Source: a virus
Taxonomy: Duplodnaviria; Caudoviricetes
Virus record (IMG/VR): IMGVR_UViG_2509276064_000002
Coordinates: 1-64,000 of that record
Direction: 5' to 3' (one strand)
DNA length: 64,000 bases
A program made the translations under genes and the position numbers. Below, in pieces: positions 11,724 through 12,716 of the stretch. How positions within the stretch are numbered: position 1 is the first letter of the stretch; each line of letters opens with the position of its first letter. Under the pieces are notes generated by a model. That model worked only from the letters and a program-made list of their open reading frames with translations. It was not told where the DNA came from and ran no database searches.

Positions 11724-11833
11724 TCAAGTTGAGGCGTAATTTGTTCGTGCCTCTTCTACTTCTTCTCCACCACCCCTTCTATCCCAGCAAAAAGGCCCCA
11801 CCCGCCGCGAGGCAAGGTGGGGCCTTTTTCGTC

Positions 11834-12670
11834 TTAGGGCATGTTGGCAGGCATCGCCGCCGGACCTGGGACCACACGAGTCCCGTCAAACTGGTAGGAG
11901 CGGTCAAAATAGACGACCTGGTAGGAGCGGTCATAACGGCTTCTTCTGGAAGTGACGTAACCGTAAGTCCCATTGACCGTCTGCTGTATCCGGCAGGTGG
12001 TCACGCCGTAGGGGAACGACGGGATGTTGAGGATTCTGAAGTCTTTACAGTCCGTGGCCGTTTTGAGGTAGGTATTGCTGTCGAAGCGGTAGCTCTCTGC
12101 GGCGAGGACGGCGTTACGCAACAGGGACTGGGCCACCAGGAGATTTGGGTAACGGTGGCGGTCCATGATGAAGCCGTCCTGAACATCGTCCCACAGAAGG
12201 GCCCCCGGAACGACCAGAAGAACGTGCCCTGCCCACCAGAGGACCTTGCGCCAGAGGACCACTTGGTACCGTGGATCATGTGTCCCCCATCGGCGATAGG
12301 CCTTGGTGTAACTGGGCAGCATCACGGCTGTGGAACCCAGAGCGATGCTTGACCACAGCGGCCAATCCTGCAAGGTCAGCCCCTGGAAAGCAAGGATGTC
12401 TGTGTCCTCCCAATACGCCCCCGTATAAGCCTCGTAGAGACTGGGGATCCATGGGAAGAGAAGGACGCTGACGACACCCCAATAACCGATGATCCCGAAG
12501 AGCAGCCCCATCGCGCAGCCCCAGCGCATATGGGCTTTGTGGTGACCCAGCAGGGTGAAGCCTGCACCCGGGAAAAGCAGGTTTAGCAACACACCAGTGA
12601 TATAGATCCACCTGGATTTCCGGGGTGGGCCTGCCGCTCCAATAGGGTCTTCCGATGTGGGGGCGGCCAT
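11834..12670 (-). CDS. Multi-TM membrane protein with C-terminal pilin-like domain (cargo)
   Basis: LLNLLFPGAGF TM start; AQSLLRNAVLAAESYRFDSNTY...C...C; TAGACT 6 nt before ATG. Confidence 0.7.
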   Translation of the reverse strand: MAAPTSEDPIGAAGPPRKSRWIYITGVLLNLLFPGAGFTLLGHHKAHMRWGCAMGLLFGIIGYWGVVSVLLFPWIPSLYEAYTGAYWEDTDILAFQGLTLQDWPLWSSIALGSTAVMLPSYTKAYRRWGTHDPRYQVVLWRKVLWWAGHVLLVVPGALLWDDVQDGFIMDRHRYPNLLVAQSLLRNAVLAAESYRFDSNTYLKTATDCKDFRILNIPSFPYGVTTCRIQQTVNGTYGYVTSRRSRYDRSYQVVYFDRSYQFDGTRVVPGPAAMPANMP

Positions 12671-12716
12671 ACCCGCAGTCTATGGGGCCGTTCGTTTGGC
12701 GCGAGTTGTCCGTGCC

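What the first reader, a model, noticed from the sequence alone, without database searches (positions are those of the whole stretch)
11818..12705. Precise filled-site versus empty-site insertion with a 7-bp TGGGGCC duplication
Seen: the remnant reads ...GCAAGG-TGGGGCC-GTTCGTTTGGCGCAAGTT (1676-1682). The prophage reads ...GCAAGG-TGGGGCC-[insert]-TGGGGCC-GTTCGTTTGGCGCGAGTT (11818-11824 and 12683-12689), an 865-bp gain. The insert is little more than a -10 box (TAGACT, abutting the junction) plus one ORF, with no transposase. Inference: a minimal gene cassette captured at the 3' arm of the terminator hairpin, in an integron-like way without a visible dedicated recombinase.
Basis: partly seen in the sequence, partly recalled or inferred. 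Interest (0 to 1): 0.72.

Follow-up and report, generated by a model that had tools for sequence, protein, structure and literature searches.

The report
Prophage cargo gene beside reused terminator
A single accessory gene was added at the foot of a terminator hairpin that this family of Deinococcus prophages reuses as a joint for swapping cargo. This is a clean but ordinary case of phage gene shuffling, not a new integron-like capture system.

Summary
An 858-bp segment (window 11825-12682) carrying one minus-strand gene is flanked by an exact 7-bp repeat (11818-11824 and 12683-12689). It splits a "hairpin + tail" element that is continuous in the remnant (1652-1700) and in seven more copies in the same genome. 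Insertion is therefore the likely direction.

The integron-like reading is not supported:
- There is no integron integrase in the genome.
- The cassette has no second hairpin or attC-like site, and no inverted ends.
- Four other cargos next to this hairpin family show no such 7-bp repeat.
- The prophage's own att core (73 bp of tRNA-Val) is unrelated.

The hairpin is a family of at least 15 terminator stem-loops found only in this genome's sister prophages. Homology blocks end in its arms. The same flank is joined to different loops, and one cargo gene occurs in both orientations.

I read the event as moron gain by short-homology or microhomology recombination in the hairpin's 3' arm. The closest published analogue is PeSL-mediated shuffling in T4-type phages.

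The cargo is an orphan membrane protein with a pilin-head domain and no prepilin leader. The scan has reported terminator-bracketed cargo slots before, in E. coli prophages. Interest is modest.

The parts
11789..11829 (.). Hairpin B with its A5 and T5 flanks: a bidirectional intrinsic terminator. The stem-loop is 11794-11824 and the left copy of the 7-mer is 11818-11824.
   Evidence: Sequence. RNA folds of -36.7 and -34.8 kcal/mol, z about -4.7 on both strands. Terminator scan hits on both strands. Eleven copies with at most 3 mismatches in the own genome and none in 110 other genomes of the genus.
11825..12682 (-). The 858-bp insert. It consists of a T5 run, 4 nt, the gene X ORF, and a 12-nt 5' leader.
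   Evidence: Absent from eight other hairpin+tail copies. No DNA match in the phage, plasmid, viral, metagenome or genome collections.
11834..12670 (-). Gene X, 278 aa. It has about 3-4 predicted transmembrane helices (residues 22-161) followed by a type IV pilin head domain, and no prepilin leader.
   Evidence: Pfam PilA4 PF18682, E = 4e-9, 37.2 bits against a cut-off of 26.8, residues 180-244. Hydropathy analysis. The C-terminal ~110 residues (about 166-278) are 35-57% identical to ordinary 145-175-aa pilins. Residues 1-167 match only X itself among 1.84 billion representatives, and the full-length protein is an orphan. GC3 is 0.72 in both halves, like the host and the phage late genes.
12677..12682 (-). 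A -10-like hexamer (TAGACT on the minus strand) that ends 6 nt before the ATG. It could be a promoter for a leaderless mRNA.
   Evidence: Sequence. The consensus promoter scan found no full sigma-70 site here. Leaderless mRNAs make up about 60% of D. deserti mRNAs (PMC4007540). Inference only.
12683..12689 (.). Right copy of the 7-mer. It is the last 7 nt of a hairpin 3' arm, now detached from any 5' arm or loop.
12690..12716 (.). The 'tail': a conserved sequence that lies between the hairpin and the stop codon of the next minus-strand gene. It includes a 14-nt iteron-like core at 12698-12711.
   Evidence: In all eight other copies it directly follows a hairpin. The same core forms an 11-copy array between a Rep (PF10134) gene and parA/parB on contig C6.
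1652..1700 (.). The 'empty' site in the remnant: hairpin B directly followed by the tail.
   Evidence: 39 bp at 95% identity to 11786-11824.
9230..9262 (.). Hairpin A: same arms, different loop. It is the left border of the neighbouring three-gene cargo slot.
   Evidence: -29.2 kcal/mol, z = -4.65. Homology to the remnant ends at 9230 and homology to the C4_289k prophage ends at 9260.
12717..15126 (-). End of the late operon upstream of X: a small 65-aa gene (12717-12914), a 173-aa gene (12983-13504), the endolysin (13844-14719) and a holin-like gene (14653-15126).
   Evidence: PHROG endolysin phrog_181, E = 8e-63, plus a holin-like coiled-coil membrane protein. Further upstream on the minus strand are the major head protein, large terminase and primase.
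7528..7600 (.). Prophage attL core: a 73-bp perfect repeat of the 3' part of tRNA-Val(GAC) plus its terminator. The other copy is 66 kb to the right, outside the window.
   Evidence: It contains no copy of the 7-mer.

Best explanation
Gene X is a phage 'moron', an extra gene added at the very end of the late (lysis) operon of a roughly 66-kb siphovirus-like prophage integrated at tRNA-Val.

It sits in a hypervariable stretch where sister prophages of this genome carry different small genes. That stretch is punctuated by a family of near-identical bidirectional terminator hairpins.

Shown:
- The hairpin+tail element is ancestral and continuous.
- X interrupts it exactly at the last 7 nt of the 3' arm.
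- The hairpin arms are recurrent recombination joints in this phage family.

Inferred:
- X previously lay next to a hairpin of the same family in a related phage.
- It was moved by a short-homology or microhomology crossover in the 3' arm. This could have been a small circle integrating there, as in PeSL mini-circles. It could also have been a template switch, or a homology-anchored illegitimate join.
- That crossover left the 7-mer on both sides.
- No dedicated recombinase is needed. Host or phage general recombination would suffice, for example a RecT-type annealase such as the one encoded elsewhere in this genome.
- Once in place, X uses hairpin B as its terminator. It is probably expressed by read-through from the late operon and/or as a leaderless mRNA from the -10-like hexamer.
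- Its product, a membrane-anchored pilin head without a leader peptide, plausibly interferes with type IV pili (superinfection exclusion). That function is untested.
For: 1. Direction of the event. Eight uninterrupted hairpin+tail copies stand against one interrupted copy. X is found in only one of at least nine related prophage regions.
2. The 7-bp repeat is exact and not chance, at 1.2e-4 per position.
3. The hairpin is a phage-family repeat: 11 B-type copies plus A-type copies, all in prophage-like regions of this genome and none in 110 other genomes of the genus.
4. The arms act as joints.
- Homology to sister prophages stops at the hairpin feet, at 9230/9260 and around the 11786-11824 island.
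- The Ala-rich cargo gene is inverted in C10 (95% identity over 907 bp), and the homology ends inside the arm.
- One left flank is joined to a B loop at C10:132909 and to an inverted A loop at C2:169051.
- The tail is joined to B loops, A loops and inverted A loops.
5. Different cargo follows the hairpin in sister prophages.
6. The insert begins with T5, which rebuilds the A5-stem-T5 form seen in other family members. This suggests X travelled with a family hairpin.
7. The position downstream of the lysis genes is a classic moron site (PMC3594210).
8. PeSL papers describe the same logic for T4-type phages (PMC2839356, PMC4122927).
Against: - No donor copy of X exists in any database searched, so the pre-insertion context of X is unknown.
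- The flanking repeat is only 7 bp, far shorter than the roughly 100-bp PeSL repeats.
- The similarity of the insert's first 20 nt to other hairpin flanks is weak: P = 0.17 for the best match and 0.017 for the top three.
- All comparisons are between paralogous prophages of one genome.
- No promoter with a -35 element was found for X.
Confidence: 0.62

Rival explanations
1. Generic illegitimate (microhomology-mediated) insertion from an unrelated donor. The hairpin matters only as a fragile or stalling site, and X had no earlier link to this hairpin family.
For: An exact 7-bp repeat is typical of microhomology joins. The extension of similarity past the 7-mer is not significant for the best match (P = 0.17). 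X is an orphan with no known relatives.
Against: An insert flanked by the same microhomology on both sides needs a circular donor or two coordinated joins. The insert's T5 start rebuilds the family's A5-stem-T5 architecture. X has host-like GC3 and a pilin head closest to this genome's own pilins, and a sister prophage carries a pilin gene at the same hairpin. Both points fit an origin within the family.
Confidence: 0.2
2. A true target-site duplication made by an enzyme acting in trans. The enzyme would recognise the hairpin foot, make a 7-bp staggered cut or use a 7-bp overlap, and capture promoter-plus-ORF cassettes.
For: The duplication is exactly 7 bp at the base of a structured site. Seven bp equals the overlap length of some tyrosine recombinases (textbook knowledge). 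Y1 (IS200/IS605-type) transposases and many tyrosine recombinases exist in the genome.
Against: No integron integrase is present. The cassette has no attC-like hairpin and no inverted ends. IS200/IS605 elements make no target duplication (established knowledge). Four other cargos at this hairpin family show no such repeat. The prophage att core is unrelated. The event is seen only once.
Confidence: 0.08
3. The filled state is ancestral, and the continuous hairpin+tail copies arose by deletion between the two 7-mers.
For: Deletion between 7-bp direct repeats is easy and would restore a perfect hairpin+tail.
Against: It would need a deletion in the ancestor of eight diverged copies (85-96% identity over the short element), including copies with A-type and inverted loops. 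X occurs nowhere else.
Confidence: 0.04

Closest known systems
PeSLs (promoter-early stem-loops) of T4-type phages (Arbiol et al. 2010, PMC2839356; Comeau et al. 2014, PMC4122927)
   Same: Both are small conserved terminator stem-loops repeated in a hyperplastic region. Orphan genes sit next to them. In filled-versus-empty comparisons the empty state has a single copy. Both serve as points of exchange between otherwise unrelated sequences.
   Different: PeSLs are about 100 bp and include a strong early promoter. Here the conserved unit is a 31-33-bp stem-loop with A/T runs, sometimes followed by an iteron-like tail, and no promoter part has been shown. The right-hand repeat is only 7 bp. The hosts are temperate siphovirus-like prophages of Deinococcus. 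Mini-circles have not been tested.
Morons of lambdoid and other temperate phages (HK97/lambda concept; 'The moron comes of age', PMC3594210)
   Same: An extra gene present in one phage and absent from relatives. It lies at an operon end next to a terminator, downstream of the lysis genes, and likely benefits the lysogen.
   Different: Its own promoter is only a -10-like hexamer. Its base composition does not differ from the late genes, whereas many morons differ.
Integron gene cassettes (IntI, attI, attC)
   Same: A minimal single-ORF unit next to a hairpin-forming site.
   Different: There is no IntI, no attC within the cassette and no GTTRRRY core. Integron insertion makes no 7-bp duplication. 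The cassette has its own -10-like element.
Homology-facilitated illegitimate recombination and relaxed homologous recombination by phage annealases (De Paepe et al. 2014, PMC3945230)
   Same: Foreign DNA is gained using a very short or diverged homologous anchor plus microhomology. Temperate phages and defective prophages in one cell act as partners, and this genome holds many sister prophages.
   Different: Neither the anchor length nor the enzyme was tested here. The only RecT-family gene found lies in another region of the chromosome.
Type IV pilins of the PilA4 type (the cargo protein)
   Same: The C-terminal head domain matches Pfam PilA4 and contains two cysteines. A sister prophage (C10) carries a normal pilin gene at the same hairpin.
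   Different: X lacks the prepilin leader and the conserved N-terminal helix. In their place is a 167-aa orphan polytopic membrane domain.

Membership tests
Integron cassette system | Integron integrase (IntI) gene | tested here: not met
   TIGR02249 search of the whole genome: best hit 41 bits against a cut-off of 265; only generic tyrosine recombinases were found.
Integron cassette system | attC imperfect palindrome carried by the cassette | tested here: not met
   The only hairpin is the resident terminator. The right end of the insert does not fold better than shuffled sequence (z = +1.06).
Integron cassette system | Crossover in a GTTRRRY core, with no target duplication | tested here: not met
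   The sequence after the junction reads GTTCGTT, which does not fit RRR. A 7-bp duplication is present.
Insertion sequence / MITE | Transposase gene or terminal inverted repeats | tested here: not met
   The ORF fills 837 of 858 bp and encodes a pilin-like membrane protein. The 9-nt and 12-nt ends are not inverted repeats.
Insertion sequence / MITE | Target-site duplication | tested here: met
   Exact 7-bp direct repeat. On its own this is not diagnostic.
Phage moron | Gene present in one phage and absent at the same place in relatives | tested here: met
   X is present in one of at least nine related prophage regions; eight continuous hairpin+tail copies lack it.
Phage moron | Own terminator | tested here: met
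   Hairpin B followed by a U-run lies 9 nt after the stop codon on the minus strand.
Phage moron | Own promoter (independent transcription unit) | tested here: inconclusive
   A -10-like hexamer lies 6 nt before the ATG, which fits leaderless mRNAs (PMC4007540). No -35 element was found and the consensus scan gave no hit.
PeSL-like regulatory repeat | Conserved terminator stem-loops repeated in a variable region and lying at mosaic joints | tested here: met
PeSL-like regulatory repeat | Promoter component in the repeat | tested here: not met
   No sigma-70-like site was found in the hairpin or tail. The tail instead matches a plasmid iteron core.
PeSL-like regulatory repeat | Excised mini-circles | not testable with these tools
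   This needs PCR or deep sequencing of induced cultures.
Type IV pilin (cargo) | Pilin head domain | tested here: met
   PF18682, 37.2 bits against a cut-off of 26.8; 35-57% identity to pilins of the genus.
Type IV pilin (cargo) | Prepilin leader and conserved hydrophobic N-terminal helix | tested here: not met
   The N-terminus is a 167-aa orphan membrane domain. The C10 prophage pilin has the normal leader.

The most novel reading that the evidence does not exclude
The 7-bp repeat is a true staggered-cut or overlap duplication made by an unidentified host or phage enzyme. This enzyme would recognise the foot of the phage-family terminator hairpin and load ORF-sized cassettes there. That would be a hairpin-targeted gene-capture system in Deinococcus prophages, distinct from integrons and from IS200/IS605 elements.
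Probability: 0.06. Interest if true: 0.75.

Novelty: new member of a known kind. Interest (0 to 1): 0.3.

Why it matters
It gives a well-resolved example of how temperate phages gain accessory genes: one filled site against eight empty ones within a single genome. It shows that in a Deinococcus phage family a reused terminator hairpin serves as the exchange joint. This extends to another phylum and another phage type the principle described for PeSLs in T4-type phages and seen repeatedly in E. coli prophages.

It does not reveal a new recombination mechanism.

The cargo may deserve a functional test as a pilus-directed exclusion factor. It is an orphan membrane protein carrying a pilin head, and a sister prophage carries a full pilin gene at the same hairpin.

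Tried and rejected
- **Donor or relatives of the cassette or junctions.** I searched with the protein and two DNA patterns across 111 genomes of the genus. I also searched IMG/VR, metagenome and GTDB contigs by pattern, the phage and plasmid collections by blastn, the 5.8-billion-protein word search and the 1.84-billion-representative HMMER search of the N-terminal domain. Only X itself was found.
- **Rfam.** No family matched the hairpin or tail. The only hit on the hairpin was a meaningless sub-threshold miRNA hit; a sub-threshold tmRNA fragment hit at 7556-7601 lies inside the att core.
- **ESM Atlas.** Nothing with a TM-score above 0.4 for the N-terminal domain.
- **AlphaFold, single sequence.** Mean pLDDT was 44.9, so the model is unusable and I ran no fold search.
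- **PDB sequence search.** No hit.
- **Does the repeat extend beyond 7 bp?** It does not extend exactly. The imperfect similarity of the insert's start to other hairpin flanks is only suggestive.
- **The tail as a promoter.** No consensus match. A sigma-54 reading was rejected by eye because the spacing is wrong.
- **Prophage integrase acting on the hairpin.** The att core shares nothing with the hairpin.
- **An mRNA-derived (retro) insertion.** Rejected because the insert includes the -10-like hexamer upstream of the likely transcription start.

Full report
**Observation**

- In the remnant, a stem-loop at window 1652-1682 ends with the 7-mer TGGGGCC. An 18-nt stretch follows directly.
- In the prophage, the same stem-loop (11794-11824; one mismatch, in the loop) is followed by 858 bp. 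Then come the 7-mer again (12683-12689) and the same 18 nt with one mismatch.
- The repeat is exactly 7 bp, since the neighbouring bases differ.
- The 7-mer occurs at 1.2e-4 per position in this genome, so its recurrence at the joint is not chance.
- The 858 bp hold one minus-strand ORF, 11834-12670, 278 aa. Nine nt lie between its stop codon and the hairpin, and 12 nt between its ATG and the right 7-mer.
- There is no room for a transposase, and the ends are not inverted repeats.

**Context**

- The window holds a siphovirus-like prophage whose late operon runs on the minus strand. In order it carries primase, large terminase, major head protein, a 2569-aa ORF (25501-33210; by its size and position probably the tape measure, not searched here), tail genes, a holin-like gene and an endolysin.
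- Its ends are a 73-bp perfect repeat, window 7528-7600 and 66 kb to the right. This repeat is the 3' part of a tRNA-Val(GAC) gene.
- Gene X is the last gene of the late operon, after the lysis genes and two small genes.
- Plus-strand genes converge on the same hairpin from the left. The hairpin folds strongly on both strands and has A5 and T5 flanks, so it is a bidirectional terminator.

**The hairpin is a repeat family**

- With at most 3 mismatches, the B-type stem-loop occurs 11 times in this 6.65-Mb genome and in none of 110 other genomes of the genus.
- An A-type variant has the same arms and a different loop. It occurs at window 9230-9262 and at several other places.
- All copies lie in regions homologous to this prophage.
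- The "hairpin plus tail" composite occurs seven times by pattern. With two variants on C4 near 960 kb, nine tails are known.
- In eight of them the tail follows the hairpin directly. Only here is it 865 bp away.
- The eight continuous copies are diverged from one another and include A-type and inverted A-type loops.
- X occurs once. Insertion is therefore far more parsimonious than deletion.

**What happens at these hairpins in sister prophages**

Different cargo follows the hairpin in different prophages:
- a 36-aa ORF (C4 near 289 kb);
- a 55-aa ORF (C2 near 44 kb);
- a complete type IV pilin gene flanked by a B and an A hairpin (C10 near 133 kb);
- a 92-aa gene placed after the tail (the remnant, and C4 near 960 kb).

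None of these has a detached 7-mer. The exact point and the duplication are therefore not recurrent.

The arms themselves are recurrent joints:
- Homology to the remnant ends at 9230. Homology to the C4_289k prophage ends at 9260, at the two feet of hairpin A.
- Hairpin B is a 39-55-bp island of 84-97% identity between unrelated flanks.
- The Ala-rich gene of the remnant is present in C10 at 95% identity but inverted relative to the tail. The homology ends inside the arm.
- One gene end is joined to a B loop at C10:132909 and to an inverted A loop at C2:169051.
- The tail with its 7-mer is joined to B loops, A loops, inverted A loops and, here, to the leader of X.

**Mechanism**

These facts fit recombination between related phage genomes in the short palindromic arms of a shared terminator. 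This is the logic shown for PeSLs in T4-type phages. There, an orphan gene flanked by two repeat copies corresponds to a single copy in the relative, and small circles are intermediates (PMC2839356; PMC4122927).

Here the right-hand copy is reduced to 7 nt. The insert begins with T5, which pairs with the resident A5 and rebuilds the A-run/stem/T-run form seen in other family members. This suggests that X came from a context next to a family hairpin. A permutation test on the first 20 nt gives only weak support (best match P = 0.17; sum of the top three P = 0.017).

I cannot tell which of three routes produced the event:
- a circle integrated at the 7-mer;
- a template switch at a stalled hairpin;
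- a homology-anchored join with an illegitimate second end.

The donor is unknown. The genome holds many sister prophages as partners and one RecT-family gene. Relaxed recombination between phages and defective prophages is documented (PMC3945230).

**Against an integron-like or other dedicated system**

- There is no integron integrase.
- The cassette has no attC-like fold.
- There is no GTTRRRY core.
- The event is a single occurrence.
- The prophage att core is unrelated.
- Y1 transposases exist in the genome, but that family makes no target duplication and needs hairpins at both ends of the element (established knowledge).

**The cargo**

- Within the C-terminal ~110 residues of X, residues 180-244 match Pfam PilA4 above the curated cut-off.
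- That region is 35-57% identical to ordinary pilins of the genus, closest to one on contig C7 of this genome.
- Residues 1-167 carry about 3-4 hydrophobic helices and match nothing else among 1.84 billion representatives.
- GC3 is 0.72 in both halves, like the late genes. The neighbouring three-gene cargo has GC3 of 0.38-0.43. The two cargos were therefore gained separately.
- A -10-like hexamer ends 6 nt before the ATG. This fits the leaderless mRNAs common in Deinococcus (PMC4007540), but no -35 element was found.
- A role in blocking pilus-dependent superinfection is an inference from the domain content and from the pilin gene in the C10 prophage.

**Verdict**

The mechanism is most likely ordinary phage modular shuffling at a reused terminator. 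Earlier reports of this scan describe the same kind of terminator-bracketed cargo slot in E. coli prophages. I class this as a new member of a known kind and score interest at 0.3.

Noticed in passing
window 12698-12711 and 1691-1700; G000:C6:354109-354447 (L049): The 14-nt core of the tail is also the core of an 11-copy direct-repeat array lying between a Replication-initiator-protein-A gene and parA/parB on contig C6. That array is most likely the iterons of that replicon. Single copies also follow other terminator-like hairpins on C10 and C11. Why prophages keep one iteron-like box next to their late terminator is unexplained.
   Followed up: partly
G000:C10:132909-133571 (L051): A sister prophage carries a complete type IV pilin gene, with a normal prepilin leader, between a B-type and an A-type hairpin. 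Pilin-related cargo therefore recurs at this hairpin family.
   Followed up: partly
window 819-1613 and G000:C10:136159-137062: The Ala-rich repeat protein gene of the remnant is 95% identical in C10 but in the opposite orientation relative to the tail. The homology ends inside the hairpin arm.
   Followed up: partly
window 9586-9594: A perfect DnaA-box sequence, within a 16-nt motif, lies just upstream of the low-GC three-gene operon. The same 16-nt motif is present in the short spacer between hairpins A and B of the C4_289k prophage, which lacks the operon.
   Followed up: no
window 7528-7600 and G000:C4:1850130-1850202: A 73-bp perfect direct repeat marks the prophage ends. It is the 3' part of tRNA-Val(GAC) plus its terminator. 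The intact tRNA-Val and a tRNA-Cys lie at the right end. ARAGORN finds no tRNA in the window because only the partial copy is there.
   Followed up: yes
window 9587-11723: A three-gene plus-strand operon with GC3 of 0.38-0.43 sits between hairpins A and B. Its middle gene has HEAT repeats, just under Pfam's cut-off (26.3 against 27.7 bits). It is clearly foreign and was gained separately from X.
   Followed up: no
window 12717-12914 and 4041-4226: Two small minus-strand ORFs end in nearly the same C-terminal peptide (…RA[M/L]GCEG). The first abuts the tail.
   Followed up: no
G000:C4:253604-254107: This is the only RecT-family gene in the genome. No ERF-family gene was found.
   Followed up: no
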